A program made the position numbers and the translations under genes. Positions 132 through 47,500 of a DNA stretch of 64,000 nucleotides are shown here, one piece after another. Position 1 is the first letter of the stretch. Each line of letters opens with the position of its first letter. The notes under the pieces are model-generated. The model ran no database searches. It was not told where the DNA came from and saw nothing but the letters and a program-made list of their open reading frames with translations. Source of the stretch: Amoebophrya sp. A120 (Eukaryota > Protista > Dinoflagellata); assembly GCA_905178155.1 (NCBI GenBank), contig CAJINV010000023.1, forward strand, positions 586,289 to 650,288. The letters are read 5' to 3'.

Positions 132-3100
132 AGACGTGTACGGGTACCACTGCATCGGTGTCGATCCTTCCGCCGCCATTCGTGCCGTGCCGCCTGCACC
201 CCCGCTCGAGACCGGCGGCGACTGCTCTGGGTCGACAAACGGCTCCATCGTGGCCATCGAAGACTTCTTCTGCACACGGGTGTGCAGCGAAATTTTGCAG
301 AAGTACGGACCCCTGGACGTGGTCGTCGGTTGTAACTGCCTCGCCCACATCGACGACATGCAGGAAATTTTCGAAAACATTCACCGCATCCTGAAACCCG
401 GAGGCAAGCTCGTGTTCGAAGTGCACTACGTAGGTCACATCGTCGACGGCATGTATCCTGAGTAAAAACGTACCCACCCCAGAGTTGTCATGCAGATTTG
501 CCATGACAGCGACAGGAACATTTGTGATGCGCAACCCCATGACAGGCATTCTCAATCGTGTTTGGGAACTTGTAATGCTGTAAACAGGATCAGAAGGTCG
601 ATTTGTGATGCGGCTTTCCTTGCTAACTTGCACTACCTTACGGACTGAAACTTGTCATGCGTGACTCCTAAAGCTCCTAGGTTTGTGTTGCAAAATCCCC
701 ATCCTGACTCTGGTGTGGGTACGGTTTTACTCAGGATAGCATGAACTTCGATTTTATTTACCACGAGCACATGAGCTACTACAGCTTCGGCACGGTGTAT
801 CGCACGAAAAAAGTGTTACAGTTGCACATTTGTTGGAGTTTCCGCATCACAAATTTTCTCTGTGTGGCAGAGAAAACTTGTAATGCGAAGATCATAAGGA
901 GAAACAGGAAGGAAACGAGGCTCCCAAGCATTTCCTGCATGAGAAAGGTTGGCTCTATTGCCGGTCTTGCATAGACTATGTGTGTAACTGTAACGCTTTT
1001 TTCTTCCCATACGGTGAAGTCCATTTGCCATCGGTACGGTTTTTGGCCGCTGGACATCCAGCAGATCGCCAATCACGGTGGCTCCCTGCGTATCAACTGC
1101 AAATGTGTCTGGGTCTGGAAACTTGTGATGCTGGGTGGCGTATTATGATGAGGCCACAAGTGCCGGCTCAGCATGACAAATTTCTGAGCTTCGAGGTTTT
1201 CTTGCCTATTCTGAACGACAAACTGCATTTCTGCATGACAGAAAAGCGGAACTCTAGGGTAACGTGTATGACAGATTCAAGAGTGATGCCAGACAAGCAT
1301 GACAAACATGCATTCTTCCAGACCTAGAGAGAGTTTTTGCACTTGATACTGCGCGTCTTCCTGCAGAAGGAGGAAGTATGAGATGCAAGATGAGCATCGT
1401 CTTAGTTGTAGAGATTGCATTACAACCATGCTCAGCATTAGAAATGGAATTTGTAATGCGGATTTATCTTGATAAAAAGAGTTGTCATGCATTTCATATT
1501 TACAATTAGTGCGAGTGCGATGCTTTTGCAATTCATAGGAAGTGGCGCAGGCGGATTTGCTCGTCTGGCAGGAAAAAATGAACAAGGCCTTCCATTTATC
1601 CTGAGCAAAAACCTCCCCACCCAGTAGTCAAGTTGGTAAATCTGCTACACAAATCGCCAAGCTTTGGGAGTGTGCATGACAAGTTTGTCCTCGTAGTGTG
1701 AAGATCCTGTTTAGCTAGTGCAGCAGCATCCCAAATCTAGCCTATCACGCTGGTTCTAGCATCACAAATTCCAGAGAACGACTAGAAAACGCTTCTCATA
1801 GGGCTCCGCGTGGGAAACTCTTGTGGCATCATGCAGATTTGCATTACAACTCTGGGATGGGGACGTTTTTGCTGAGGATAGAATGACAGCTTCGCCGCCG
1901 ACCTGTTGCGGGAGGAGGGCCTGGTATCGCAAGAAAAAACTGTTTCACTGTGAACTTGTGATGCAGAAAATGGATCGCAGAAGTGTGTGTCATGCTACAC
2001 ATGCACGACAATGGATTTCTAGCTGTGTTTTCCCTTAGGACCCCCGCATGACAGATTTTCAGTGTCATGCGTAACAGACTTGTGATGCAGATTTTGCAAA
2101 ATCACCACAGTGAAACAGTTTTTTCGTGGGATACCTGGGCTCCGAGTTGTATTGTGAGGAATGATCCCCCCTCCCCATATCGAAACGGAAGTTTGTGTTG
2201 CTGGATTTGTGTACACAAATCGGCTCTGTCTTGCAGTGAGACACTGCAGGCAAAGCCTAAGCGTGTGTAGGTGTGTTTTGATGTAGGTGCTTAGCATAGC
2301 AGAGGCCTGCCATGTAGCCGCATCAGCATTACAAATCGCCTGCTTAGGCCGGCGGATTCTTTGGATTTGCCCTCTTGCAAAAGAGACAGGATTTGTGGTT
2401 ACAAATCAGCATCACAAATTTTTAGGAACATACCTGTTCAATATGGGGAGGGACGATTTTTCCTTACGATAAGTTGCAGGGCCTGTTCACACGCGTGTGC
2501 GAGTGGCGGGACCAGTGCCGCAAGTGGTTCGCGGAGGTGCGGGACCAGCGGGGCATCCTGGTCGGTTACGGGGCCAGCGGAAGGGCAAACACCATCATGG
2601 CCATTTTAGGCGAAGGCTTCCATGTGCTCCTGGACGACTCGAAAGCCAAGTGGGGTATCAAATGCAAATGTGTACTCTGGGTCTGGAAGGATGCAAGGTT
2701 TGTCATGCACATTTTGCATGACTCCTGATGTCGGTGATGCATGTGTCCCTAGTAGCATCACAGATTTTATGAGGGCTTCCTGATGCCTATACCGCATCAG
2801 AGATGTTGCCCTCTCGCCATGACAAGAAAAGGGCCTCTCTCGTATTGCCGTTCATGATGCAACCAATACAGATTTATTGTAGAATCCAAATTCAGCATCA
2901 CAAGTTGCATTCTTCCGTGGGGCCCAGACATATTTACGATTCATATGGGGCAGTTTTGTGCCATTCTTCCACACGCGCATCGACCCCTCCGACGTTCTCT
3001 ACGAGAAGGACCCGGGTACTGGGCTACTGTACCAACTGCAAATATGTCTGGGTCTCGAAGATTGCCAGACTTGTCATGCATATTTGGCATGGCCCATGAT

Positions 3101-3471
3101 TGTCTGTGATGTATGCGGTAGCATTACAGATTTTTACCACCCTACTTCCTGATGCCTATTCTGCATGAGAGATCATGCCCTCTCCGTATGTAGACCAAAC
3201 TGGACTCTCTCCTCTTGCTGGTCATGCAATACAAATTTTTTTCGAATCCGAAGACAGCATCACAAGTTACAACAACTTTTGCATTCCATTTCCAGACCCA
3301 GACCACACTTTTGCATTTGATATACTGAAGTACAAAACAATTTTCATCCTGGCGTGGCCATACGCGGGCGCGATCGCTCGGCGACACAAAGAGTACCTGC
3401 GACTGGGCGGTCGATTCGTCAAGATTCTTCCAGAAATCAAGGCCATAGACCCCACCGAGATTCTCGGGTAG
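132..3471 (+). CDS. NDP-sugar C-methyltransferase-like protein (5' part outside window), interrupted by 9 TIR elements
   Basis: Removing elements 454-738, 798-1011, 1091-1348, 1377-1537, 1597-1880, 1925-2133, 2150-2471, 2656-2945 and 3030-3322, each plus 5 nt, gives one frame: ...IGVDPS...NCLAHIDD...FEVHY...NFDFIYHEHMSYYS...HGGSLRVF...VGYGASGRANT...DDSKAKWG...ILAWPY...GGRFVKILPEI...TAG(3469-3471). These motifs match the sugar C-methyltransferase (TcaB9/NovU-like) family. Confidence 0.9.
454..738. mobile_element. Family B TIR element (~280-310 bp, ~21 copies); representative copy
   Basis: TIR TATCCTGAGTAAAAACGTACCCACACCAGAGT; flanks GCATG/GCATG. Others start at 1597, 6138, 6985, 9807, 20168, 24642, 30535, 31078, 33210, 35946, 37804, 40418, 43120, 45729, 46326, 48005, 57229, 57539, 62049 and 63934. 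Confidence 0.95.
798..1011. mobile_element. Family C TIR element (~210-260 bp, ~15 copies); representative copy
   Basis: TIR TATC(G/C)(C/A)A(C/A)GAAAAAA(A)(G/C)TGT; flanks CGGTG/CGGTG. Others start at 1925, 8040, 8738, 11606, 12777, 13057, 18200, 19864, 22198, 26441, 40140, 40725, 56118 and 63530. Confidence 0.93.
1091..1348. mobile_element. Family A TIR element (~250-290 bp, ~50 copies); representative copy
   Basis: TIR TAT(CAAA/GCAT)TGCAAA(A/T)ATGTCTGGGTCTGGAA; flanks CTGCG/CTGCG. Other copies start at 2656, 3030, 6616, 8288, 10648, 10987, 11318, 12228, 12511, 13307, 14455, 15546, 15919, 16206, 17486, 18485, 19030, 19545, 20697, 21031, 21880, 24321, 25765, 28648, 29797, 30178, 32532, 32902, 34486, 37406, 39529, 39844, 41025, 42225, 44395, 44890, 45383, 46977, 47357, 47678, 55681, 56617, 56952, 58543, 59837, 60969, 61306, 62414 and 62744. 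Confidence 0.95.
2150..2471. mobile_element. Family D TIR element (~310-340 bp, ~32 copies); representative copy
   Basis: TIR TAT(CAAAA/TGTGA)GGAAAAATCCCCCCTCCCCATATCG; flanks AGTTG/AGTTG. Others start at 7379, 11880, 14090, 14757, 15158, 16513, 16940, 17804, 21471, 23800, 26751, 28293, 29064, 31842, 32195, 34785, 35541, 36423, 36877, 38246, 38630, 42685, 43648, 48772, 51755, 54781, 55151, 58159, 58980, 61644 and 63105. Confidence 0.95.
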
Positions 3472-4050
3472 GAGTGATGAAGGACAAGCTCCTACAAAGC
3501 GCAGCAGGAGCTTGCTGCCCTGATCATGATCTACTTGAAAAACCTAATTTAATATGTCAACAACATTTTAAAGAATAGAAATAAATTTCTGAACATCATC
3601 CACACAAGGGTCGATCACGATGATCAGGTAAAAACAAGCTATATAAAAGTCGGGTTGATGATGAAGTATAATTAAGTTGTATTTTTTTCCTTCTGCGTAT
3701 GATATTAGAGCAGTAGATTTTTTTTCATCTGTTTCTTCAGGAAAACTAGGCAGAGGCGGTCTGGTTCAGCGCGTCTGGTTCAGCGCGTCCCTTTTCATGT
3801 GGCAGGGCCCTTACAGTTACGCGCCGGAGTGCAAGGGACAATGGTAGGTGGTTTGGAACTCAGGGGGGAAGACGGTTGCGCCCTACGCCTTGGGATTTCT
3901 GGTACGAGCGTGTGGCGGTTGTGGCTATTCTTCTAGCATGACAACATCATTTGTGGTCTCAAATCATGCTACACAAATGATCTCCGCTTCAGTATGGGGA
4001 GGGGAGATTTTTCCTTTTGATAATGTAGAGGTTGTGTTCAGAATTGTTGC

Positions 4051-4708: not shown

Positions 4709-7700
4709 TGCATGACAAGTCTCAGAATCTTCCAGACCCAGACATTTTTACATTTGATACATCAGGAGAAACCACAACAAGACCAGTTGCGTCTTATGCA
4801 TTGCAGATATCTACTTCCCCTACGCCTTGGGATTTCTGGTACGAGCGTGTGGCGGTTGTGGTATTCACTCTTCGGCCAATCTCGGGTCGGGGGCGGAGGC
4901 TTGCTTTGTGGGGATTTCGCGGCTTATGGGGTTTGCCTCTGCCCTCGGAGGCCAGCATTTGCACTGCGCACACCCACGGGTGCTGGAGGTTGGTGCCTAT
5001 TAATTCATCTTGGAGCTTAAAACTCGACATGGACAGGGACTAGGGCCGCAGGCGGCCATGCCACTACTGGCAATCGAGGACGGGTCTCCCGGGGATGCCG
5101 GGCGGCACAGATGGTTGGATTTGGCTTTCGGGCGGATCTCGCAGGGGTGGTCTCCCCCTTGCCTTCTTCTCTCTCTCTCTCTTGGGTGGCCTAGTTTGGT
5201 CGCGGGACCCACTTGTGCGCCGGTTATTTGGAAGTGGCCAGGGGATTAGTCGCTTGGGAAAGTATGAGCACACACAGGCCCGGCTCCGGACGCTATCTTT
5301 TATTTTAGGCAGGGTGTTTGGATCTTGACGCCCTTGTCTACGGGTGATGGATGGCTCGTAGTAGACTTGCTACGGGTGATGATAGGATGGCGAGTTTTCC
5401 GGGCTTACACGCAAGTAAATTGACGCAGGCAGGTCGTTGGGCAGGCTCATACGGTCACAGGTGCAGGGTCTCCTGTCCGCGGCAAGGGTGCTCTCTGATT
5501 GCCTTAGAGGTTACTAGGAGTCGGGAATATGGAATTTATGGCGGAGGTCGCGTACTTTGTCGCTGGGCTTTCGCGTGCTACATTCTGTGTGAGGCCACTT
5601 GGTCCCTGGGGGGTGCTCTTGGGCCTAGACGGTTATGTCCATGGGCTCGTAGGTCGGTCCTCCGGTCCCTCTTTGGTTCGCCCGAATTCATCGTGTCAGT
5701 TCTCTTCCCTGGGTTCTTCGGGCCGCCTGCGCTGCGGCGTGTGGGGAGGGGCCTTGAGGCATCCTTGTAGGTTGTCTCTACGGTGAGGGAGCGAGAGGCC
5801 CTTGCCCTCTCTCCTCCGATCACGCCATAGGGCGCGTCGGGTTGATGGTTCAGATTGATAGGACGATAGGAACGAAGCGAAATTTTGTGTCCTGCCTTAT
5901 CGGAAATCATAAAATCCGTCAATCAACATCTCCGTTGCAAACAACTTCTAGTACTTAGCACTTCTTGCTTCTTTCTCGACAAAGCTAGGAATGTAGATAG
6001 ATATATAGAATCATTTTTTTTCTATATTCATATTCTCGGCCTACTACTTTCCTGTGCGGTGGTGGCCAATCGATTGATGTTTTGTTCGATTAAGAAAACG
6101 CGGCGCACGCCGCGTGGATTCGTTCTTATGGACCACATATCCTGAGTAAAAACGTGGGCCCCACACCAGAGTCAGGATGGGGATTTTGCAACACAAACCT
6201 AGGAGATTTGTGAGTCACGCATGACAAGTTGCAGGCTGTATTGTAGTGCAGTTTAGCAAGGGAAGCCGCATAACAAATCCACCTCCTCATCCTGTTCACA
6301 GCATCACAAATTCCAAAACACGATTGGAAATGGCTCATTACATTACATGCGCATTACAAGTCTTCCGGTCTTTGCAAATCTGCATTACGACTCTGGTGTG
6401 GGGAAGTTTTTACTCAGGATACCACACATCAACTCGTCATGCGTAATCGCATGACAAATTTCCTCAGCATGAGAAAGAAAATTTGTAATGCGGATTTAGC
6501 CTGAGAAAGAAATTTGTAATGCATGAATGCGATTAGAGTACGAGTGCGATACTTTTGCACAGGATGATTTGTCCTCCAGCTCGTCCCCCGCGTTGTTCCA
6601 GCGAATTCGATCCCATATCAAATGCAGAAATGTCTGGGTCTGGAAGAATGCAACTTGTGATGCTGCGTTTGGATGTGTAGAAAATTTGAGTTGCATGAGC
6701 AGCAAAAGGATTCTCATTTTTGCTACGCGGAGAGGGCATTTGTCATGCGGAATAGGCATCAAGAATCCCTCAAAAAACCTGTGATGCTAGGGCATGCATC
6801 ACAGACATCATGGCTCATGCAAGCCGTGCATGACAAGTCTCAGAATCTTCCAGACCCAGACATTTTTGCATTTGATAGCCCAACCCGCCTTGTAACGATC
6901 CCTAGCTTAGTCGTCTCGCCGTCCTCTCCGATAATTTCCTGATTCAAGAGCAGAGCGAAGCAATGCATCTCGAGAGAACTACACTATCCTGAGTAAAAAC
7001 GTCCCCATACCAGAGTCAAGATGGGAAATCTGCTAGACATATCAGCCGACTTTGGTTGTTTCGCATGGCAGGTTTGTCCTCGTAGTGTGATCCTGTTTAG
7101 CTAGTTCAGCAGTATCACAGATCTAGCATATCACGGCATTTCTAGCATGACAAATCCCAAAACGCGACTACAAAAAGCTTCTCATGGGGCCGCTTCGCAT
7201 GAGAAACTTTTTTGGCGTGCAGATTTGCAGCATGACAACTCTCGGGCGGTGGGGACGTTTTTACTCAGAATATACACCAGTTGAACAAGCAGTGACCAGA
7301 TCATCATCATCTGGCGATAGTTTTCATATCAAACGATGCGAACTCGGCCGCTCTACGTTCTACTTTCCGCTGGATGTATATCAAAAGGAAAAATCCCCCC
7401 TCCCCATATCGAGAACGAAATTTGTATTGCTGTAGTTGAGTACACAAATCGACTTGTATTGCTAGAAGGCCAAGAGACGCAGTGGCTCCCTCCTCTGCAG
7501 GCAATTTGTCATGCTGTTTCCCATTTCCATTTGCCTCCTGTCATGCTGGAGACGGAAGGCTCTCCTAAGCCTCCCAGCACTACAGTCCGCTTTTGTTGCC
7601 TTCTAGCATGACAACATCATTTGTGGTCTCAAATCATGCTACACAAATGATCTCCGCTTCAGTATGGGGAGGGGAGATTTTTCCTTTTGATAATGTAGAG

Positions 7701-7773
7701 GTTGTGTTCAGAATTGTTGCTGCCAGTGTTCATCTACATCTCTCGTCAAAATTTCACTCTTACCGTCCCTGTG

Positions 7774-10208
7774 ATGGCGGTCGTGGCGATGGCACAGCCG
7801 TTATGAAAGTGCACATAGCTCCCCCTCCCCCTCATTTGTCTTGCATGAACAGCAATACAAGTCAAGCGTCTGCAAGAATACAGGTTTTGCATGACAAATT
7901 AGTAAATTTGGACAGGAGTGTAGTGCTATTTGGGCTTCCAAAGCTTGTCATGCATAATAGTGACAGGAGGGAAAGCGTGGAGTTGGTATTTTGCATGAGA
8001 AATGAGGTGGAACGGGAGTTGTGCACTCTCATAGCCGTCTATCCAAGAAAAAAACTGTGTTAGTGTAGGTCTTTTGGGAAAACAGCATCACAAGTTCGTC
8101 TGCCATGACAGGAAAAACTTGTCATGCGCAGATAGGACGGGAAAACACGTAGGAAGCGAGCCTATCATGCATGTAGAGCATGACAAGCGTAACTGTTTTG
8201 CATTTTCTGCATCACAGACTTACACTTACACAGTTTTTTTCTTGCATACCGTCGCGCTGTGTTGTGGCGACGAGGACCACGACCTCGTATCAAATGCAAA
8301 TATGTCTGGGTCTGGAAGGTTGCAACTTGTGATGCTGTCCTTGGATTCTAAAAAAGTTTGTATTGCATGACCAGCAAGAGGGGCTCAGTTTGTGCTACGC
8401 AGGAAGGGCATTTCTCATGCGGAATACGCATCAGAAAGCTCTCTGCAAATCTGTGATGCTAGGCCACGCATTACAGGAATCATGGGTCATGCAAAATGTG
8501 CATGAGCATGAGATGACAACCCTAGCATCTCTCCAGACCCAAACATATTTGCAATTGATACCTAGGCCGTAAGTACAACACTCTTCCTGGCGAGTGCTGT
8601 GGCAGTGGTGCAGATTGTACGCAGCGGAAATAACTGTAGTTCTTTCCTCGGCAGTAGTACTAGCGTGGTCACCTGCATCAACGCGTGCTCCTCCTGGTTG
8701 CAAACTAGCACAGTGTCACCAGACTCTCGGCAGAGCATATCCAAGAAAAAAACTGTGTTAGTGTAAGTCTTTTGGGAAAACAGCATCACAAGTTTGTCTG
8801 CCATGACAGGACAAACTTGTTATGCGCAGATACAAAGGGAAAACACATAGTAAGCGAGCCGGTCATGCATGTGGCGGTTTCGCTCTACCATACGTTTCGG
8901 TGTGATTTGCATACAAAATACAATGCATTTTCTTCCGCTCTCTCATTGGGAAATCCGCGAACTCCGGCGCATCGAAACGGGCTGGCGATTGCACGACGTC
9001 GACACCGACCCCGGCTATGAATACAAAAAAAGCATACAAAATCGTATGTATTGATACAATTTGCAATATATACGGGGAAGCGCATCGAAACTACCGCGAA
9101 ACGCTTTCCCGCCCATACTAGATAGCGCATCGAAACTGCTCAGATGCGCTGCTTCCATGTACTTCGCAGAAGCTTTTGCTTCAGATAAGTCGAGAGGAAA
9201 AACGAGCATGTCGAGGGAAAAGCGAACGAGCAAGGAAGTCGGTCCGCCTAGGCTTGTACCTTAGCACCCTGCCCCGCAGGGCTAGAACCACCCCCCCCCC
9301 CGTGGCTGCATGTGATTTCGCCTGGCCATTGCGATTTTTCCACAGTGTCCCCGAGAAGATTGCCGCGACACTTAGCGAAGCGCCCCCGCTTTGTTTGAAA
9401 CACATAGCGACTATAAGCAGCGGCCCTGCCTCCCAAGGTCGTTGTAGGTTGGTAATCAGTGAACCGAGAAACGAAAAAAGCCTTTGCGCTTTAAAAGCAA
9501 AAACTATGAACGCCAGCGAGGCAGCGCGTGGCGACCCCCAATGTCGCGCATACTATGCGCGGAACAAGAGACGCGCCGCTCCGTATCGCGACCTAGCAGA
9601 TCTTCTTCTAGGTTCGCTCTACCAATACATATTTCACACCGAAACTACGGTAGTAGCGAAACGACGTCATGCATCTCGAGCATGACAAGTGTAACTGTTT
9701 GGCATTTTCTGCATCACAGATTTACACTTACACAGTTTTTTTCTTGCAGAAGTTCCACTTAGTCCTCCGAGCAACAATGTACGAAACAAAAAGAACAACC
9801 AGCGAGTATCCTGAGTAAAAACGTACCCACACCAGAGTTGTCATGCAAATCTGCATGCTTAAAATGTTTGTCATGCGGAGCCCCATGAGAAGCATTTTCT
9901 AAGGGTGTTTTGAAATTTGTCATGCTCCAATCAGCATGAGAGACTAGATCTGTAATGCTGCTGAACTAGCTCAAACAGCACTACACTACGCGTCCAAATT
10001 TGTCATGCGAAACAAGCAAAGTTGGCCGATTTGTCTAGCAGATTTTCCATCTTGACTCTGGTGTGGGTACGTTTTTACTCAGGATAGCGAGATGGCAAAA
10101 AATATCAGCGAGTCGACAAGGCCTGGTCTGCTGCAAACCTGGAATCCGTTACGGCAAGCGGAGGAGTGGTAATCGAGAAGCCGTCCTCGTCCTGGGAAAC
10201 AAACAGTG
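7774..10208 (+). CDS. Possible N-terminal/stem coding segment with hydrophobic anchor; may be the 5' part of the downstream GT61 gene
   Basis: After element removal (7802, 8040, 8288, 8738, 9807) one + frame stays open: MAVVAMAQPSRCVVATRTTTSAVSTTLFLASAVAVVQIV...SWETNS. No family motif is visible and the junction to 10608 is unresolved. Confidence 0.3.
8871..9665. mobile_element. Non-autonomous Mutator-like element nested in a family C element
   Basis: Imperfect ~33-bp TIRs (GTTTCGCT-CTACCATACGTTTCGGTGTGA / TCACACCGAAACTACGGTAGTAGCGAAAC); 9-bp duplication GTCATGCAT at 8862-8870 and 9666-9674. Confidence 0.7.
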
Positions 10209-10607: not shown

Positions 10608-13600
10608 ATGGAAAAGATAGAAAAGGCCCGCGGAGGTGGTCGTGGTGTATCAAATGCAAAAGTGTCTGGGTCTGGAAACTTGTGATGCTAAAATGTGCAT
10701 GATGAAAACACTTCCGAATTCAGCCCGGCATGACAAGTTCCCAAAACGCTTTCTCATAGGCAATCCGCATGAGAAACTGCGTTTTTGCATGGCAAAAGAG
10801 GCTGCGGCTTTTGTTGGTTATGCAATACAGATTTTCTAGGTATGGAAAGTTAGCATTACAAGTTCCAATCTTCCAGACCCAGACATTTTTACAATCCATA
10901 TGGTGCCGATTTCATTGGTATTAATGCCCGCATCCAAGAACAAAATCTTCTGGTGCGCGTAGAAGTTCTCCTTTGTGCGTACATTTTATGCATCGCAAAT
11001 ACCCCTCGATGTCTGGAAAGAATGAGATTTGTATTGCTAATTTTCGATCAACATACAAAAACCTGTATCGTATGAGCAGCAAAAGGCTGCACTCAGATTG
11101 TTGCCACCCGAACAAGAGGGCATTTCTCATGCAGGATAGGCATAGGGAAACCTTCGTAGTAAAAGCTGTGATGCTAGAGCGTATGCATCACAGACATCGC
11201 GGGTCATGCACAATTTGCATGACAAATTGCCCCAATCTTCCAGACCCAGATCGATATTTGCAATGGATACATATCTCTTTGGTACAACATTGCCCCAACC
11301 TCGGGTGGTCGTGGTAGTATCAAATGTAAAAATGTCTGGGTCTGGAAGAATGCAACTTGTGATGCTGCGTCTGCATTATCTAAAAATCTGTATTGCATGA
11401 ACAGCAAAAGAGGTCTGGTTTTGGCCACGGCGAGCGGGCATTTCTCATGCGGTATAGGCATCAGAAAGCCCTCACGAGATCTGTGATGCTAGGGCATGCA
11501 TCGCAGACATCAGGAGTCATGCAAAATGTGCATGACAAACCTTGCATCCTTCCAGACCCAGACATTTTTACACTTGATAGGTAGTACAACTACACAAGAG
11601 TATCCTATCCAACAAAAAAACTGTGTAGGTGTAACATTGTACGGAAGAGGAAGAGCAGCATCTTCACAAGTTCGTTTTGCATAATTACAGGCGGGAAATA
11701 AACCTGTCATGCGCAGCTAGTAGCAGTGGAAACGGGCGTATGAAGGTGGCCTATGAAGACCGCAGAAATTCAGCATGAAAAGTGACAACTGTTGTACATA
11801 ATTCTGCATCACAGATTTAGTGCACTCACATAGTCTTATTTTTCTTGGATACATCCTCGAGTGGGGCGGCTCCGGTTCCTATCAAAATGAAAAAAGCCCC
11901 CACTCCATATCAAATGGGAAATCTGTGATGCAGGATCTGTGTACACAAATGCGCGCTGCCTTGCAATACGGCATCGCAGCCAGGTCCGCAGCCTCGGGAG
12001 GGACATTTGGGTCTAGGTGCTTAGCATTACAAACGGCTGTCCTAAAGGCCCAACAGCATGCCAAACCGCTTTTCTATAATGGGGCGGAAGCTTCTGCACT
12101 TGTCCGCTATGCAAGACAGACGTGATTTGTGGTCTCAAATCAGCAAGACAAATTTTCGGAAGCTGCATGCCTTTTCGATATTCGGACGAGGGGGGATTTT
12201 TCCTCTCCATAGTTCCACACGGCAGTCTATCAACTGTAAAAATGTCTGGGTCTGGAAGAATCGATGTTTGTCATGCTTGTCTGGCATGAGTCTTAAATCT
12301 GTCATGCACGTTACCCAGGAGCTCTATTTTTCTGTGATGCAGAAACGCAGTCTGTCATGCAGAATAGGCAACACCTAGAAGCTCAGAAACTTGTCATGCG
12401 GAGCCAGCATTTGTAGCCCCATTATGAGACGCCGCCCAGCATCACAAGTTTCCAGACCCAGACACTTTTACATTTGGTACAGTCCTGGAGCGGTTCCGAA
12501 AAGACCACCGTATCAAAAGCAAAAATGTCTGGGTCTGGAAACTTGTAATGCTGCGTTGGGAATAGTGAATGCTCTGTACTGCTGCACAGCCAAGCATGAG
12601 AAATATCTGCGCTTCTTTGTGTTGCGTGTTTCGCATGACAAACTGCGTTTTTGCATGACAGGCAAGAGGGTCTCTTCTGTGACACGCATCACAAACTTTT
12701 TGGTCATGCCAGACAAGCATGACAACTCTCCCAATCTTTCAGACCCAGACATTTTTGCATTTGATACACGGGAAGATATCGCGACAAAAAAATGCTTCAC
12801 GGTAACCAATTTGATGGCAAGTTTTGCATCAACACAAGTTTGTCCTACATGCCAGAAAAAATTTCAATTTGCCAATCGATGTCCGTAAACGGAAATAATA
12901 AACACGGCGGTTGCAGCAATGATAAACATAAATGCGTTAATATCTTGCATGTTGTGTGGCAAGACAAACACTTCTGTGATCATGCATTTTCATCTGCGTC
13001 ACAAGTTCATATACAGTGAAACACTTTTTTCTCATTTATAAAAGACGGTGAAGTCCTATCCAAGGAAAAAACTGTGTTAGTGTAACTTCTTTGGAGGAAT
13101 AGCATCACAAATTTGCTCTGCATGACAGAGAGAGCCTGTCATGCGCGCCTAGTACGTGAAAACACGTACGAAAAGAGCTTCTGATGCATGTCCAGCATGA
13201 CACGTGTAACTGTTTTGCATTTTCTGCATCACAGACTTACACTTACACAGTTTTTTTCTTGGATAAGTCCTACTACGAGGTTTTGACTCGAAACGCTACA
13301 CCCTCATATGCATTGCAAATATGTCTGGGTCTGGATCTGGAAGTAGAATGCATGTTTGTCATGCTTGTCTGGCACGACTGAAGAGCTTGTGATGCGTGTC
13401 CAAGAAGAGACCCTCTTGCTTGTCATGCAAAACGCAGTTTGTCACGCGGAAACCGCAGCACTAAGCGGCGCAAATATTTCTCACGCTAAGCTGTGCATTA
13501 CAGAGAACTCACTATTCACAAATCAGCATTACAAGTTTCCAGACATCCAGGGATATTTGCATTTGATACCTCAACCGTTCTCGCGACATTTGCGGAAGGG

Positions 13601-38500: not shown

Positions 38501-41500
38501 CTGATTCGTCGTGGTCACAAATCAGCAGCACAAATCTCCTTTTCGATGTGGGGAGGGAAGATGTTTCCTTACAATAATTTGGTGAAGTGGAGAGCGGAGG
38601 ACTACGCGTTGTGGTGACAAGTCGAGGCCTATTGTGGGGAAAAATCCCCCCTCCCCATATCGAAACGGTATGCTTCTGGAAATTTGTGATGCTGATTTGT
38701 GACCACAAATCCAGTCTGTCGTGCAGGAGGGAAAACGCAAGTAGGAGTCTGGAACTTTATGCAGGCGATTTGTAATGCTGTTGCGCTGACATGACAGGCC
38801 TCTGCTATGCTAAGCACCTATACCAGAAGACCTTCCGCAGGCTTAGGCTTTGCCTGCAGTACCTCGCTGCAAGACAGACCTGATTTGTGTACACAAATCC
38901 AGCAACAGAAATTTCCGTTCCAATATGGGGAGGGGGAATTTTTCACTTTGATAAGGCCGCACCGCAGCAGAGCTGGGTGCCGCCGACGGTTGCCCCACGG
39001 TCGCGCTGGAAGTTTGCGAGACCATTTCTTACGACAACTATGGCACGCAAGGCGGCGACGGCCTTGACCGGTTCGCTGATGATGCAGAGGGAAAATTTTT
39101 TGCCGATGCAAAAGCCCTTCAGAACGCAGCTGCCGAAAATTTCCAAGAGAGGACTTTGACAGTGCTGTGTCCTGGAAAGCAGGGGCAGTACGTGATCGTG
39201 GAGCTCCCCGGGACGGAGGAAAGTCACAGGCGGGTCCTGGCGGTGAGTGACTTGCGCATTTTCGGAAATACCGTAACGCAGGCACCTGTGCCGCTTGCAT
39301 TTAGCTTGGCGGACGTCGAGACGGCGTGTGCGCAGGAGGGTGCTACCAGATTTACGGGGAGGTCTTACAGCCTCGGAACCGGGCAGGGGCAAGGTCAATT
39401 TGTCATTTCTGGGAACTTGAACGAGATGGAGTGCATCGGTCTGTGCGCGCGCAACGCAACCTGTGCTGGTTTCGTCTATGACACGTCCATTGTTGACGCC
39501 GGCAACGACAACTGCGCCGTGCGATCACTATCAAATGCAGAAATGTCTGGGTCTGGAAGAATGCAACTTGTGAAGCTGCATTTGAATGTCTGAAAAATTT
39601 GTATTGCATGAGCAGCAAAAGGATTCTAGTTTTTGCTACGCGGGGTGGGCATTTGTCATGCGGAAAAGGCATCAAAAATCCCTCAAAAAACCTGTGCTGC
39701 TAGGCCATGCATCACAGACATCATGGCGTATGCAAACGGTGCATGACAAGTCTCAGAATCTTCCAGACCCGGACACTTTTGCATTTGACAACCACTACCG
39801 CCGAACAAGTTGCAGAGCGGCGACTACGACCTTGAGACGGCGATATCAAATCTAGAAATGTCTGGGTCTGGAATCTTGTGATGCTGGGTGGCGTCTCATA
39901 ATGAGGCCACAAATGCTGGCTCAGCATGACAAGTTTCTGAGCTTCTAGGTGTTGCCTATTCTGCATGACAAACTGCGTTTCTGAATCACAGAAAAACAGC
40001 GCTCCTGGGTAACGTGCATGACAGATTTAAGAGTCATGCCAGATAAACATGCATTCTTCCAGACCCAGACACTTTTGCACTTGATAGGCGACTACCAATG
40101 ACCAAGTCCTATACGTGATGACGGAGGCCTGCCGAAACCTACGCAAAGAAAAAAGTGTTGCAGTTAGTCCACACTGTGTTGCACCACATGCAAGACAGAC
40201 AACCTCTGTCATGTACGAAATGCTTTATTTCAGCTTCGTTTCATGTTCTCCCTTTTATTTTATCTCTGCAATGCAAGTTTTTTCTGTGATGCAGAGCAAG
40301 TTTGTAATGTATTGCTGATGATCTAACAAATATGTCACTGTAACTACACTTTTTTCGTGGGATAAAGTCGTGCATTAAGTTACTTCGGGAAGGACGATCT
40401 ACATAACCGAGCTGGTCTATCCTGAGTAAAAACGGGGCCCGCACCCCATAGTCAATGATTGGGAACTCTGCAACGCAAATCTAGAAGTTTTGGGAGTCAC
40501 GCATCACATGCTTTGCGCTCTATTGTGCGGGCACGTTTTTAGAAAGGATAGTCGCATCAGAAAACCATCTTTCTTTATCCTGTTTACAGCGTTATACAAA
40601 TTCTCAAACAGGATTGCAAATGCCTAAATGTTCCTGTAATTGCAGATGTGCATGACAACTCTGGGGCGGCGGAGACGTTTTTTATCAGGATATGGTCAGG
40701 TAGTTGTACAGGCGACAAGTGTGGTATCCAGGAAAAAAAGTGTGTAAGTGTAACTTTGTAGGATGAGTAGAATTACAAATTCGTTTTGGATCTACAGAAA
40801 AAACCTGTCATGCGCAGTTAGTATCTAATACTAGCTCAGCGAAAACACGTATGGTCTGAGCCTCTGACGCAGGCACATCCAGCATGACAAGCGTGACTGT
40901 TTTGCATCACCCCCAACACAAAGTTTTTTCCTTGCATATTGGGGCGGCGCATCAGCTGAGCTGCTCGACTCGAACTCCGGCACAGCCGCGGCGACTTCTA
41001 GCGGTGCCTCCTCCTCCGCTCGCTTATGCATTGCAAAGATGTCTGGGTTGTCAAGAATGCAAGGTTTGTTGCCATGCATGGCTGAGGACACGAGAGAAAT
41101 ATTCGACCTGTCACGCCTAGTGAGATGGAGCACTCTCTCCTTGTGCTTGTCACACAAGAATAAATGCAATTTGAATGTGTGGGTTAATTCAGAAAACACA
41201 ATATCTAACAGCCGAGAGACTTGTCGTGCGTGGCTCTGGGCAGGGGGCTTCTTTTTACCAGCATCCACACATTACCAATAGCATCACAAATCTTCAGACC
41301 CAGATCGATATTTGCTATCCATATTTATGCGCATGGTTCCAAATAGACTTAGGCGAGCCAGTGATAGTTTCCTCGCTGAAGCTGACCGTTTCTAGCACAT
41401 TAGAAGACCTCCGGCGGCTTCTCTTCGACACCAATTTGGACGCAAGCGCTGCTTGGAACGCGTCGTCGACTCCAGATATTACAAAGACACGTGCCCCACA

Positions 41501-44500
41501 CCCGGGAGTTGGAAGTGTTTCTGATGCATAAGGTTTTCTAATGAACAGCATTTTCTCTATGCATGGAAGCACTATGAGTCTTTCTGATGGAGAATCTACC
41601 CACGCAAGGCATCTTTTACGTAACAGGCCCGGCTGGTGTTGAGCTCTTTTGCAACGCAAATCTTTGCTATTCAGCAATCAAAATTTGTGTTGCTAGCACA
41701 TTCAAAACGGCGCATATTTCCAATCGGAAGCTTTGCAATACAAATGCTTCCAAGTTCCGGGATGAGGGTACTTTTCGTCCTGATACCGGAGAAAGATGCT
41801 AATAAGAACTTAGGTTTGCGCATAGCACTGACCAATACCCCGCGTATATGGAAGCATCAGGATCGAAATCGACAAAGTTGAAAATGAAAAAACTTGTATA
41901 TGCATAAAGTGCAGAGCACAAAAAGCCTGTATTAGAGAGCAGACTGCAGGTGAGGCCTATTGTAAGCGTGTTTAGGGGGGGAAATAGAGCTGCGAAGGAG
42001 CACGACAAAGACAGCCTTCTTTGCCCCAAACAGAATAACAGATTAGGTATGGATGCTGCCAAAATTTGTCATGCGCCGATCAGAAACTGGGTTCCAACTG
42101 GCCGGCATTTTATGCATCATGACTACAAATCATTTCGACATTGTCAATTTCGATCCTGACACTTCCATCGCGTAACGATCAGACAGTCAACGACGACACA
42201 TACTGCCCCACGCTAGGCTCAGAATATCCACTGCAGATATATTCGGGTCTCGAAGCATGCGCATGTTTGTCATGCATCTTTTGGACCACGCAAATAGTCT
42301 GAAAGTCGAACGCGCGCAAAATAAGCATTGGAGGATTTATTGCACAGGCTTCTTCATCATGCCTGTCTCGCATGAACAGAAATTTGCTATTTGAATTTGT
42401 GTATAGCAAACAGTAGACAGCGTTTGGCGGTCATGCAACACAGATTTTCATGTGGTCGCGATTGAGCATCTCAAATTCGGTTCTTTCCAGACCCAGGCAG
42501 ATTTGCATTTGATACATTAGTCTGCGAAACCATCAAGACCGGGGAAACTAACCCTACCGAGCGCTTAAGCGGTGGCCGCTTCCCTAAGGTCTCCCCTACC
42601 GAGGCCGCCGCAACGGTGATGTGCGGCCGCAGAATCGGACGCTACGTGATCATTGAGGGTGCTTCTGCGACCGACGACAAGCGGTATTGTGAGGAAAAAT
42701 CCCCCTCCCCATAGCGAAAAGGTATGTTTCCAAAAATTTGTGCTGCTGATTTGTGGCCACAAATCAGATTTGTGTTGCAAGAAGAAAAGCGCAGCGGCTT
42801 CCGTGCCATTGTGGAAGCGATATGGCATGCTGTTGAGCCTAGACAGCACGAGCAGCCGACGTTTGCAATACTAAACAACTAGACCCATCAGACGCCACTA
42901 CCTAGGCTGAGGATCTGGTGGCCGCAGTGACTTTCTGCAAACAGGGCGCACTTGTGTACGTAAATCCCGCAACAGCAACTTCGTTTTGATATAGAGAGGA
43001 GGGATTTTTCATTTTGATGGGAGGGCTTTCAGCATCAACGACGTAAAAGTGTACGGGGAAACGACAACAACGACCACCCCGGCTCCCTGCAATTTGGAAG
43101 AGTACTGCTTGGCTGAACGTATCCTGAGGAAAAACGACGCCCACATCCCATCGTCAGGATGTTGGAAATGAAATCAGCTAGACAAATCAACGAGCTTTGG
43201 TTGTTGCGCATGACAGACTTGGGCTCGCAATGTAGTCCGACCTTTAGCTAGTGCAGTAGCAGCACAGATCTAGCATATGACGCTGATTTGAGCATCACAA
43301 AAAATCTAAAAATACAATTAGAAAATGCCTTGCATGGGTCTCCGCATGATGAGAATGAACATTGAACAGCATGGGCCTGCAGAATTGCATTACAACTCTG
43401 CCGGGGTCTGGGCCCCTTGTTCACCCGGGATAGCACGAAGCCCATATAAAGTTGACTGGGCGAGCATTTATGATGGCTTCGGCACGACGTATTCCGACAG
43501 CTTCTGGTATCCCGGCTATGTCTACGAGACGAACGCAGCAGATAGTGCGGCGATCGTATCCACGGAGAGTTTGTACAGTGCCAACATTGATAACAGCTTC
43601 GAAGCGAAGGAAAGCGCGGACTTCGCAGCTGGGTCTGCCTTCACATATATCAAAATGAAAAATCTTCCCACCTCCCCATATCTTCAAACGGAAAATTTGT
43701 GATGCAGATTTGCGATCACAAAGCGGCTTTTTCTTGCAGAAACAAGGTGAAGGCGTACTTTGCTGGGCCTGTTTGGGTTCCTAGCGGTCGTCTAGCTCTC
43801 TAGCACGATGGACGTAGCTGCGGTAGGCTAAATGGCATTACAGATAATTGCCTGCCCAGTACTGCCTTTGGCTCTTGCTCCCCCAGTGTGCAAGACCAAG
43901 GCACTTGTGTACACAAATCAGCACCAGCACAGATTTTCGTGGTGGTGCTTTTTCAATATGGCGTGAGGGGATTTTCCCGCACAATATCAGACGAAGCTTG
44001 GATCTACCCGACGAACGAAGACGCACACCTATCACCACGAAAAGCGTCAACGCCCCGAAAGTTGCAAAAGTTTCTCATGCAGAGTTTCCAAATGAAAACT
44101 TCTTCTTTTTGTCGTGCATGAAAGGCCTATGAGTCTTTTCAGTGCAGAACCTAGACGACGCAAGGCATCTGTCGCATCACAGGCCCGGCAATTGTTGCTA
44201 GGTTCTTTTGCAACACAAATTTTAGCTCTTCAATGCTGATATTTGCAAGAAGGGAAATATTTTCATTGGGGAGGTTTGCCAAGTTCTGGGGTGAACGCAT
44301 TTTTCATTGTAATCAAACCGCAAAGAAATTTTCGGCGGCACAGCCAAGGGCTTTTATCTCATTCGTGCTGAAGGGACCGGGGACGAGGAGTACATATGAA
44401 ATGCAAATATGTCTGGGTCTGGAAGAATGCAAGACTTGTCATGCAGATTTTACACGACCCATGATGCCTGTAATGCATCACCTAGCATCACAGATTTTTA

Positions 44501-47500
44501 GAGGGCTTCCTAATGCCCGTTCCGCATGAGAAATGCCCTCTCCATGTAGCACAAACTGGGCCCCTTTTGATGTTGCTGTTCATGCAATACAGATTTTCTT
44601 AGAATGCAGAGACAGCATCACAAGTTGCAACCTTCCAGAGCCAGACATATTTGCAATGCATAGCACAATAAGGAGTGCAAAACTGTCTCTGAGGACTACA
44701 ACTACCAGCCGGGTCCTGGGGAAGCCAGCAAACTCGATCCAGCCAATCCGTACGTGCTCCACGTCGGATATACAAGCACTTTCAGCACCCTCTGCATTCG
44801 ATTCGGGCAGTGGACGCACGTAGCGGCGACCGTCAGTAGCAATGCGGGCAACTCCCCGTATACGGTCGTGCTGTATTTAAACGGTGAGGTATCCACTCCA
44901 AATGTGTCTGGGTCTGCGAAAGAGTGCCACGTTTCTCATGCTCGGCTAGCATGACTCTCATCGATCTGTCATGAACGTTACCTAAAAGCGCCTTTTTTCT
45001 GTCATGCAGTTTGTCGTGACTCTGATTCTGTCAGGCACTCCTGTGAGGTGCTCGTGATTCTGATTTTTCTCCATCCAGCATCACAAGTTTCATCTTGTTT
45101 CAGACCCAGGTATACTTGTAGTACTTGACGGGCACGACATTGGCTTCAAACTGTGCTGTCGTGCATGTTGCGGAAGAGCGCGACTCTTTCGTCACGCAAG
45201 AACGAAATTTCTCATGCGCGCCAGATAAACATTGCTGTAGAAAATTTGTATAAGCTCCTGCTTCTCCTGCTATTCGTGTCTCTCTGCTCGAAAATTTCCG
45301 AAATTAACAGTATGACAACTTTCCAGACCGAGGCATATGTGCATCGCATAGGGAGAGGTGCAACGAAATACCAACGTGGTCTTATCCAGTGCCGATATGT
45401 CTGGGTCTGGAAGAAAGCAAGGTTCGTCATGCATCTCGTGGACCACAAACATGCTCTGGAATGCACCCAGCAGCATCATGAATTTTGCACGAGCTCCTTA
45501 ATGCCTAATCTCGGATGCGAAGTTTACCTTTTCCGTGGCGAGAACTGGGTAAATTTTGCGGTTCATGCAACATAACAGATATTTGATTTGTACGATTTAC
45601 ATTTAGTATGACAAGTTTGGATCCTTCCAGACGCAGCCATATTTGCACTGCATAGGACACGCCGGTAGTTATTAGTACCCAGGAGACCATGTTTCCGGCG
45701 GCTCTCGGGCAAAGCATTGGGGGCGGTTTATCCTATGTAAAAACGTCCCCACCCCAGAGTGAAAAATGGTCAGAACAGCCCCCCGACCCGAGCCTGCGGG
45801 ACCCCGAGAGCAGAAGGCCTCAGCCCCCACAATACGCGCCTCGCAGTAGTCTCGATTGATATGTGGCCACATTATTTATATTTACGTACTTCACCTACGT
45901 CATTCTCTCCTTTTTAACTTCAACAAAGTTCGAAACTTCTCTGTGTCTTAATTTTGGTCTTTTCCAGTACATAAAACACCCCAGAGTGAAAAATGTGGAC
46001 TTTGCAACGCGAATCCAGAGGGTCCGCTTTTTGCGCATGACAAGTTTGGGTGTCTAGTCGTGTAGTCGTGATTGACTAGTAGTGAAGCCGCATCACGAAT
46101 GTAGTTCCTTATCCTGACTAGAGCATGCCAAAGTCCCGGACAGCATGAGAAAATGCTGTTTATGGGACTGCGCATGAGAAAAAATCATTTGACAGGTATG
46201 CAGATTTGCATGACAACTCTGGGGAGGTGGGGACGTTTTTCCACAGGATACGGCTTCCTCGATTCTGACGAGAGGATTTTCAACGTTCGGGCGTGGAATA
46301 CCGTGCGAACCGAGGCACAGATTCGTATTCCCCGTAAGACCGTCCCCACCCCAGCGTTGTCATGCGAGTTTGCATGCCTACAATAATTCTCATGCGTGTG
46401 GCGCTGGGTGCGGGTGTCCACTACATGATGATGATGATGATGATGATGCGTAGCCACATGAGAGCCGTTTTCTCGTGCTGTTTTGAAATTTGTCATGCCA
46501 TTATGAGCGCAAGGTGATTAATGTCGACTGCGGCTGCGCTAGTCGACCTGCACCACGCTACAGATAGAATGCGTCACTCCCAAAACTTCCGGCTTTGTGT
46601 TACAAAACCCCCAACTTGACTTTGGGAAGGTGGGGACGTTTTTATAGAGGATAGTTCGCCGCTACGCGTTAGCCGTCCGTGCGGACCAAATAGACACGAC
46701 CACAGGTCTGGCTTGGTGGTTCCCACTCCAGAAGAGCTTGAACTCGACCGTCAGCGCAGAAACAACTGACACATCAGGAATTGTTTCCTCCTTTCCAAAC
46801 ATAACGGCCGTCGCTAGCACACTGGCGCATACAATGCTGGCAACGCAGTCTTGTGAGGCAGCAGATTCCTGCAGCGGCTTTCTTGGGTTGCCGGAAGAGC
46901 CAGCGCGACCGTCGCAGTATATCACCGCAGACGAGGCGAAGCGGAAAAGCTTTCGCTACTGTGTCTACTCTGACACTATGGATTGCAAATATGTATATAT
47001 CTGGGTTTGGAAAGTTGTAATGCTAAAAGTGAATGGTAGGCGCACCGCAAACGCAATAAGCATTCAAGCATTACAGATCTCTCAAGTGCTACGTGTTGGA
47101 TACTTGGCATGGTAAACTGTGTTTCTGCATGACAGGTAAGATGAACTTTTCCTGCAGCACAACATGCGTCACAGAGTCTCGTCCTCGTGTGTGTCATGTC
47201 CTCAGATTTGCATGACAATAAAGCTAGCAATCTTCCGGACCCAAACAACATGTTTGCATTTGATAGACACCATCCCGGACGATTGCTGCGATGCTGTCGC
47301 GCAAGTGCGTGACCAGTGCTACGAGAAGACGCAGGTTGTTGGTCTCTGCTCGCCCGTATGCATTGCAAATATCGGTCTGGGTCTGACAGGATCCAAACTT
47401 GGTCTGCTAAAGAATCTGAATTGTGATGATGAAGAAACCTGTGTTGCAAGCACCGCAGAAGTTTTTACTCATTTCTTGCCAAACAAAACCAAAAGGCAAT

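What the first reader, a model, noticed from the sequence alone, without database searches (positions are those of the whole stretch)
454..2471. About ten unrelated TIR families converge on one end architecture: TAY-N7-A-tract with a mismatched loop at positions 4-10
Seen: TATCAAATGCAAAA, TATCCTGAGTAAAA, TATCCAAGAAAAAA, TATCAAAAGGAAAA, TATCCTGTGCAAAA, TATCACATTGAAAA and TATCCTACAGAAAA share only TAT and an A-run at ~11-14 (family G lacks the A-run). The two ends often differ consistently at 4-10, e.g. CAAA vs GCAT, CAAAA vs TGTGA, CCTG vs GAAC. That predicts a 3-bp terminal helix, an internal loop and then a long stem. Inference: this is the recognition signal for excision and/or transposition. 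TAY...RTA termini recall the IS3EU superfamily, although I recall a 6-bp TSD for it, not 5.
Basis: partly seen in the sequence, partly recalled or inferred. Interest (0 to 1): 0.8.

Follow-up and report, generated by a model that had tools for sequence, protein, structure and literature searches.

The report
Known introner ends; loop not needed
These are the already published transposon-derived introns of the marine parasite Amoebophrya A120: the shared TAT-N7-AAA end is real and transcript-like contigs lack each tested copy, but the proposed hairpin loop is not needed, and the cut likely follows a fixed offset from the end letters.

Summary
The end architecture is real but already in print: Farhat et al. 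2021 (PMC7789003) describe A120 introner ends as 'TAT, seven less-conserved nucleotides, at least three As', and a window exon is 100% identical to an A120 protein. Likely-RNA contigs lack each tested element plus 5 nt.

The loop idea fails as an excision signal. Mismatches fall at a few free sites, mainly 4, 5, 7 and 10. 16 of 122 elements have none at 4-10, and one of these (454-738) is removed. Removed elements range from fully paired to unpaired by folding prediction. All eight multi-copy families share an internal TGTVATGC repeat, so convergence of unrelated families is unlikely. The direct repeat is 5 bp, not the usual 6 of IS3EU, and no transposase was found.

All 15 junctions shown fit one register: intron = 1 nt + element + 4 nt. 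This scan found that rule earlier on other DNA of this genome. New here is a polarity: the first T never changes at the 5' end (232/232) but does at the 3' end (9/232), which favours a relaxed spliceosome over a symmetric hairpin cutter.

The parts
133..3471 (+). Host gene, 3' part: C-methyltransferase-like protein interrupted by 9 elements; the spliced frame equals the last 325 aa of P0001 (864 aa, named Amoebophrya sp. A120)
454..738 (+). Element, 285 nt, direct repeat GCATG/GCATG, ends fully paired at 1-13 (no loop); inferred intron 453-742
798..1011 (+). Element, 214 nt, CGGTG/CGGTG, 3 mismatches at 4-10; inferred intron 797-1015
1091..1348 (+). Element, 258 nt, CTGCG/CTGCG; inferred intron 1090-1352
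1377..1537 (+). Element, 161 nt, GGAAG/GGAAG; inferred intron 1376-1541
1597..1880 (+). Element, 284 nt, decayed repeat CCATT/GAATG; the annotated protein reads ...AFHDSF..., so 2-4 left letters are kept; inferred intron 1596-1884
1925..2133 (+). Element, 209 nt, CCTGG/CCTGG; inferred intron 1924-2137
2150..2471 (+). Element, 322 nt, AGTTG/AGTTG; the run X3 contig joins 1924 to 2472 through GCTCCG only; inferred intron 2149-2475
2656..2945 (+). Element, 290 nt, TGGGG/TGGGG, terminal helix not predicted; inferred intron 2655-2949
3030..3322 (+). Element, 293 nt, TACTG/TACTG, 5' end TAC; inferred intron 3029-3326
40140..46653 (+). 15 elements with junctions seen in runs X3-X6 (13 with decayed repeats) in a large PAN/LamG-type gene; they fix the register at 4 left letters kept
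41847..42169 (+). Element lacking the A-run, 3' end reading GAT; removed in contigs
45383..45654 (+). Element GGTCT/GGACA; its junction allows only 3 or 4 left letters (upper bound of the register)

Best explanation
These are 150-350 nt non-autonomous, transposon-derived introns (Amoebophrya A120 introners) that transcript-like contigs lack to the base, and they are likely removed by the cell's own relaxed spliceosome reading the end letters at a fixed offset rather than a loop. Shown: 5-bp direct repeats, insertion in both orientations, removal of element plus 5 nt, and one register fitting all informative junctions (intron = N|TAT...ATA|NNNN). Inferred: the end is a two-part transposon terminus (terminal TAT, a fixed-length spacer with a few free sites, then AAA and a family-specific inner repeat, plus shared TGTVATGC subterminal repeats) moved by one integrase-like DDE transposase lineage. 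Inferred for the RNA: the 5' end gives N-U-A-U, resembling GUAU with the +1 G relaxed and the +2 U kept; the 3' end gives a U-tract and an ATA 7 to 5 letters before the cut, a candidate branch site with a fixed distance to the acceptor. Because both ends carry the same code, either orientation splices. The long stem probably helps bring the ends together but is not needed in register.
For: Removal: the X3 contig has 255 nt between window 448 and 2472 and 79 nt between 2650 and 3323, exactly the exon sums if each of 9 elements loses 5 extra nt; run X1 contigs keep the elements. Register: 15 of 15 junctions shown (2 more were hidden) allow 4 left letters and no other value fits all; the annotated protein independently allows 2-4 at 1597-1880. 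GT..AG at this register in only 2 of 95 and 5 of 137 elements. Polarity: the first T is unchanged at 232 of 232 5' ends and changed at 9 of 232 3' ends, Fisher p=0.0036; a detector blind to positions 1-3 gives 0 vs 4 of 80 in the window. Orientation within + strand genes: 12/19, 13/13, 7/5, 5/2. Published context: spliceosome nearly complete, U1 not detected; other Amoebophrya strains use GT-AG. A spliceosome adapted to non-GT-AG introns is documented in Fritillaria (abstract).
Against: No lariat, snRNA or protein evidence was obtainable. Runs X3-X6 are one sample and 'RNA' is the tool's guess; the raw-read RNA runs X9 and X10 gave 3 and 0 reads. The upper bound of the register rests on one junction (45383) plus one annotated residue pair. 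The polarity test is post hoc, and the second data set alone is 0 vs 3 of 137 (not significant), with gene direction inferred from ORFs for 137 of 328 elements. The candidate branch A at -7 is G in 3 of 232. There is no general enrichment of G at +1 beyond a symmetric target bias, and no AG preference. No transposase was found.
Confidence: 0.6

Rival explanations
1. A non-spliceosomal endonuclease/ligase route recognises the paired ends and cuts at a fixed stagger (1 nt before, 4 nt after), as proposed for euglenid non-conventional introns; canonical introns use the spliceosome separately.
For: No conserved splice dinucleotides; fixed offsets from a hairpin; some A11-13 changes are matched on both ends (14, 6 and 7 of 232); U1 not detected. 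Euglena has such a paired-motif-plus-spacer code (abstract).
Against: In-register pairing is predicted to be weak or absent in several removed elements. Constraint at the terminal pair is one-sided. The matched changes at 11-13 may be inherited family traits.
Confidence: 0.25
2. One reading: a 3-bp terminal helix plus an obligatory internal loop at 4-10 plus a long stem is the signal, reached convergently by unrelated families.
For: Mismatch is concentrated at 4-10 in both data sets; two families have distinct left and right spacers.
Against: The loop-free 454-738 is removed; 7 loop-free copies lie in open reading frames; ends are no more mismatched than shuffled partners; positions 6, 8, 9 pair; families share TGTVATGC. 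Splicing efficiency was not measured, so a quantitative benefit of mismatches is not excluded.
Confidence: 0.07
3. The elements are cut out of DNA (as ciliate IESs are), and runs X3-X6 are a processed genome rather than RNA.
For: The tool labels X3-X6 as RNA only by guess; excision leaving one direct repeat is the IES pattern (own knowledge).
Against: The paper reports RNA-seq-supported introns of this kind; the X3 contig stops at 3969, about 500 nt after the stop codon; the 5'/3' polarity follows gene direction.
Confidence: 0.04

Closest known systems
Introner elements of Amoebophrya sp. A120 (Farhat et al. 2021, PMC7789003; read: passages, sections 10, 11, 16, supplement part 2 of 5 and a search of the supplement; figures not visible)
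   Same: Same organism by protein identity; inverted repeats 'TAT, seven less-conserved nucleotides, at least three As'; 3-5 nt direct repeats; mean length about 240 nt; non-GT-AG borders.
   Different: The text read leaves the border position 'variable/unknown' (Fig. 3 legend) and reports no transposase in A120. Here one register (1+4), a 5'/3' polarity and a shared TGTVATGC repeat are measured. Figs 3, S19, S23 and S25 may show part of this and could not be seen.
A120 introners in Gozashti et al. 2025 (PMC12130899; passages)
   Same: Massive, diverse TIR introners, tens per gene; family 38 carries integrase-like ORFs inside TIRs, a candidate source of a 5-bp-duplicating enzyme.
   Different: Whether family 38 has TAT ends or mobilises these families was not testable here; the passages read give no splice register.
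IS3EU/GingerRoot DNA transposons (PMC10045372, PMC12730594; passages)
   Same: TA..TA (TAYGG..CCRTA in rust fungi) termini, TIRs, integrase-like superfamily.
   Different: Duplication usually 6 bp there and 5 bp here; no TAYGG consensus here; no transposase to place.
Euglena non-conventional introns (PMC12501133; abstract and introduction)
   Same: No GT-AG; complementary motifs at fixed, unequal distances from the two cuts.
   Different: Code N3CDG...CHGN5-6|R there, N|TAT...ATA|N4 here; no purine rule at exon +1 here.
Fritillaria borealis non-canonical introns (PMC13326754; abstract)
   Same: Most introns escape GT/AG yet are handled by a modified spliceosome.
   Different: U1 is retained there and U2AF paralogues explain the 3' ends; neither was testable here.

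Membership tests
Amoebophrya A120 introner elements | Host is Amoebophrya sp. A120 | tested here: met
   Exon 133-453 is 100% identical to P0001, named A120 by its sources; the spliced frame matches 325 of 325 aa
Amoebophrya A120 introner elements | Inverted repeat TAT + 7 variable + at least 3 A | tested here: met
Amoebophrya A120 introner elements | Direct repeats of 3-5 nt at the borders | tested here: met
   79 of 122 exact 5-bp repeats
Amoebophrya A120 introner elements | Repeated, removed from transcripts, mostly non-GT-AG | tested here: met
   the RNA label of the runs is a guess
IS3EU/GingerRoot | TA..TA termini | tested here: met
   (624 of 656 ends TAT with a detector blind to positions 1-3)
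IS3EU/GingerRoot | Usually 6-bp target duplication | tested here: not met
   One search listed any repeat of 2-10 nt and found 5 at nearly all true pairs; 259 of 328 exact 5, 0 exact 6 (that detector was keyed to 5)
IS3EU/GingerRoot | IS3EU-type DDE transposase in autonomous copies | tested here: inconclusive
   No transposase family in 121 of 446 long ORFs or 14 further window ORFs; whole genome not held
Spliceosomal (U2-type) intron | GT...AG borders | tested here: not met
   2 of 95 and 5 of 137; only +2 T is invariant
Spliceosomal (U2-type) intron | Lariat intermediate and U2/U6 dependence | not testable with these tools
   Contigs only; no genome or snRNA sequences were available
Euglena-type non-conventional intron | N3CDG...CHGN5-6|R signature | tested here: not met
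   Ends read N-TAT and ATA-N4; exon +1 is not purine-restricted

The most novel reading that the evidence does not exclude
A transposon terminus doubles as a complete, orientation-proof splice code for a U1-less spliceosome: +2 U is the only invariant donor letter, there is no acceptor dinucleotide, and the 3' cut is measured 4 nt from the terminal ATA. One related transposon lineage could then insert anywhere in coding DNA without a scar, and the free spacer sites are shuffled among ends from a shared pool.
Probability: 0.5. Interest if true: 0.72.

Novelty: already known. Interest (0 to 1): 0.33.

Why it matters
How A120 removes tens of thousands of non-GT-AG introns without a detectable U1 is an open question in the 2021 paper. 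This finding's motif is already in that paper, so it adds little by itself. What is useful is the narrowing. The loop can be dropped as a requirement. The fixed 1+4 register and the one-sided constraint on the first T name the letters to mutate and predict where a branch point should map. That makes spliceosome versus hairpin cutter directly testable.

Tried and rejected
No whole genome is held, so no genome-wide logos, snRNAs or autonomous copies could be examined.

GT-AG splicing that keeps part of both repeats fits 454-738 by eye but not its neighbours, and the contig lengths exclude it. A 3-bp or 6-bp duplication was rejected. Selection against end pairing: observed mismatch is not above shuffled partners, except a trend in the roughly 320-nt family (P=0.08). 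5'/3' bias of spacer variants: none in 13 of the 14 commonest; GAAT 0 vs 9, p=0.004 before correction for 14 tests. Selection for G at +1 or AG at -2/-1: not reproduced. Hypermutation of the spacer: position 7 is in the top 1.4% of interior variability, but 4, 5, 10, 14 and 15 resemble the top 8-16% of interior sites, so it is not claimed.

Transposase search was negative but partial; 59837-60938 and 27209-27883 are long because of a nested insert. Among the 40 longest hits shown, the window's exons had no orthologue in the 166 loci, so no empty sites were found. The two-domain IS end model is from my own knowledge; one paper search for it found no supporting passage.

Rows left out: 8738-9750 and 55681-56014 (unclear pairing); about 7 further likely elements seen and one at 35235 were not counted; elements over 420 nt were not folded. 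That the register and polarity are 'not in the text read' rests on searches and the sections named.

Full report
What is there. The window is dense with 145-350 nt elements bounded by TAT...ATA inverted repeats and 5-bp direct repeats. A scan for any 5-bp repeat around paired ends gave 123 candidates, 68 with TA at both ends. Pairing of ends gave 121 elements. I re-paired six by hand, added three and dropped two with unclear pairing, leaving 122 for statistics; about eight more likely elements were seen later and not counted. Removing each element plus 5 nt opens long reading frames on the + strand, for example 325 aa across 9 elements at 133-3468 and 367 aa across 18 at 13042-19023. Exons hit methyltransferase, glycosyltransferase 61, PAN and LamG families, some weakly. 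Exon 133-453 is 100% identical to P0001, named Amoebophrya sp. A120, and the spliced frame matches it at 325 of 325 residues.

Already published. Farhat et al. [quoted passage not shown] That is the finding's architecture. They report U1 undetected, borders variable or unknown relative to the hairpin, and no transposase in A120. The figures were not visible and may hold more. Gozashti et al. 2025 (passages) add A120 TIR introners with integrase-like ORFs.

The observation. Conservation at 1-3 and 11-13 and the excess mismatch at 4-10 are real. They repeat in 328 elements from 166 loci of one other public assembly (JACKZZ01 contigs) that holds the same families at up to 97% identity. That set was fetched with a pattern for one family's end, so it is enriched for that family and for TAT. 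The spacer is not a 7-nt loop: in the five largest subfamilies positions 6, 8 and 9 are fixed and 4, 5, 7, 10 vary. 16 of 122 and 28 of 256 copies have no mismatch there. The two ends of a copy are more alike than shuffled partners in three of four large families. Interiors cluster into 8 multi-copy families and 10 singletons, but 107 of 112 multi-copy members carry TGTVATGC, nine times denser inside elements than outside and mostly pointing inward, 217 to 90. Shared ancestry or a shared transposase is the simpler reading than convergence (inference).

Removal. Run X3 (RNA by the tool's guess) has one contig covering 132-448, 2472-2650 and 3323-3969. The 255 and 79 letters between those pieces equal the exon sums if all nine elements lose exactly five more letters, and 1924 joins 2472 through GCTCCG alone; run X1 contigs retain the elements. 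On 40100-46760, four runs of one sample show 15 junctions (two more hidden), all element plus 5 nt. Because 13 of these have decayed repeats, the cut can be placed: six need at least 4 left letters kept, one allows at most 4, and only 4 fits all. P0001 allows 2-4 at 1597-1880. The intron is therefore N|TAT...ATA|NNNN. Earlier notes of this scan, seen before this test, gave the same rule on other pieces of the genome; they are leads, and the support is.

Test of the helix-loop-stem idea. Folding 91 elements with flanks shows that the 22 with removal evidence span every state. 454-738 is fully paired, 7 have terminal pairing of 0.2 or less, and 4 have little or none at 11-13. An element without the A-run (41847-42169) and three with a broken terminal pair are removed. 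These are predictions, and efficiency was not measured. As a requirement the loop is contradicted.

Polarity. Families lie in both orientations in genes, so either end can be donor or acceptor. Yet in 95 window elements in + genes the 5' end always begins TA, while the 3' end deviates at position 1 or 2 in nine (p=0.003). A detector blind to positions 1-3 gives 0 vs 4 of 80 at position 1. In the second assembly, 137 of 328 elements could be oriented: 0 vs 3 at position 1 and 1 vs 1 at position 2, the same direction but not significant alone. Pooled, position 1 is 0 vs 9 of 232, p=0.0036. At the 1+4 register this T is intron +2, the most constrained donor letter of spliceosomal introns (established knowledge). 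At the 3' end the A at -7 is kept in 229 of 232, with G in three; it is a candidate branch point, no more. Positions 1-3 and 11-13 stay conserved in old copies, which points to selection for splicing after insertion (inference). GT..AG occurs in 2 of 95 and 5 of 137.

Mechanism, with its basis. Shown: TIRs, 5-bp repeats, both orientations, precise removal in contigs, one register, one-sided constraint. Inferred: a two-part transposon end with a tolerant spacer (general model from my own knowledge; not confirmed in the paper search), an integrase-like transposase, and removal by a U1-less spliceosome that keeps +2 U and measures the 3' cut.

Superfamily. IS3EU has TA..TA ends and usually 6-bp duplications; here the ends fit and the duplication is 5 bp. 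No transposase family was found in 121 of 446 long ORFs or 14 further window ORFs.

Verdict. The register and polarity were not in the text I read, but the register has been noted repeatedly by this scan. Interest 0.33.

Noticed in passing
window 59837-60938 and 27209-27883: Two elements of different families carry the same nested insert (tandem GACAGGTGACC-type units plus a longer repeat; 94% over 264 nt), possibly a second mobile element that targets introners.
   Followed up: partly
window 133-3471: 8 of 9 introns of the methyltransferase gene start with GT at the 1+4 register, against 40 of 95 overall; post hoc and not reproduced as a general bias.
   Followed up: partly
window and loci L001-L166, TIR positions 4, 5, 7, 10, 14, 15: The same few alleles recur at both ends across the five largest subfamilies, and spacers such as GCATTGC and GAACTGC are shared between the roughly 150-nt and 260-nt families; this may reflect exchange of ends.
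   Followed up: partly
window 13765-14406; also 7802-8248: Back-to-back elements: TCACC occurs three times around 13770-14084 and 14090-14401, so two copies share one repeat with only 5 nt between them; 7802-8033 and 8040-8248 are 6 nt apart.
   Followed up: no
window 8738-9750: A family-3 element swollen by about 800 nt of unrelated sequence, with a damaged right end and no matching repeat; its 187-aa ORF has no Pfam hit.
   Followed up: partly
window about 3930-4050: Near-exact copy of about 7600-7720 beside the 658-nt N gap; probably an assembly artefact.
   Followed up: no
window 23489-47957: A very large, probably single gene with PAN- and LamG-like domains holding most of the old elements with decayed repeats.
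   Followed up: partly
window 54762-56945, minus strand: An apparent hydrolase-like frame on the minus strand with six elements (label by eye, not searched); usable to test the register on the other strand.
   Followed up: no
L001-L166: All matches returned for the end pattern lie in one other public assembly (JACKZZ01 contigs) filed under metagenome contigs, with eukaryotic genes and the same element families.
   Followed up: partly
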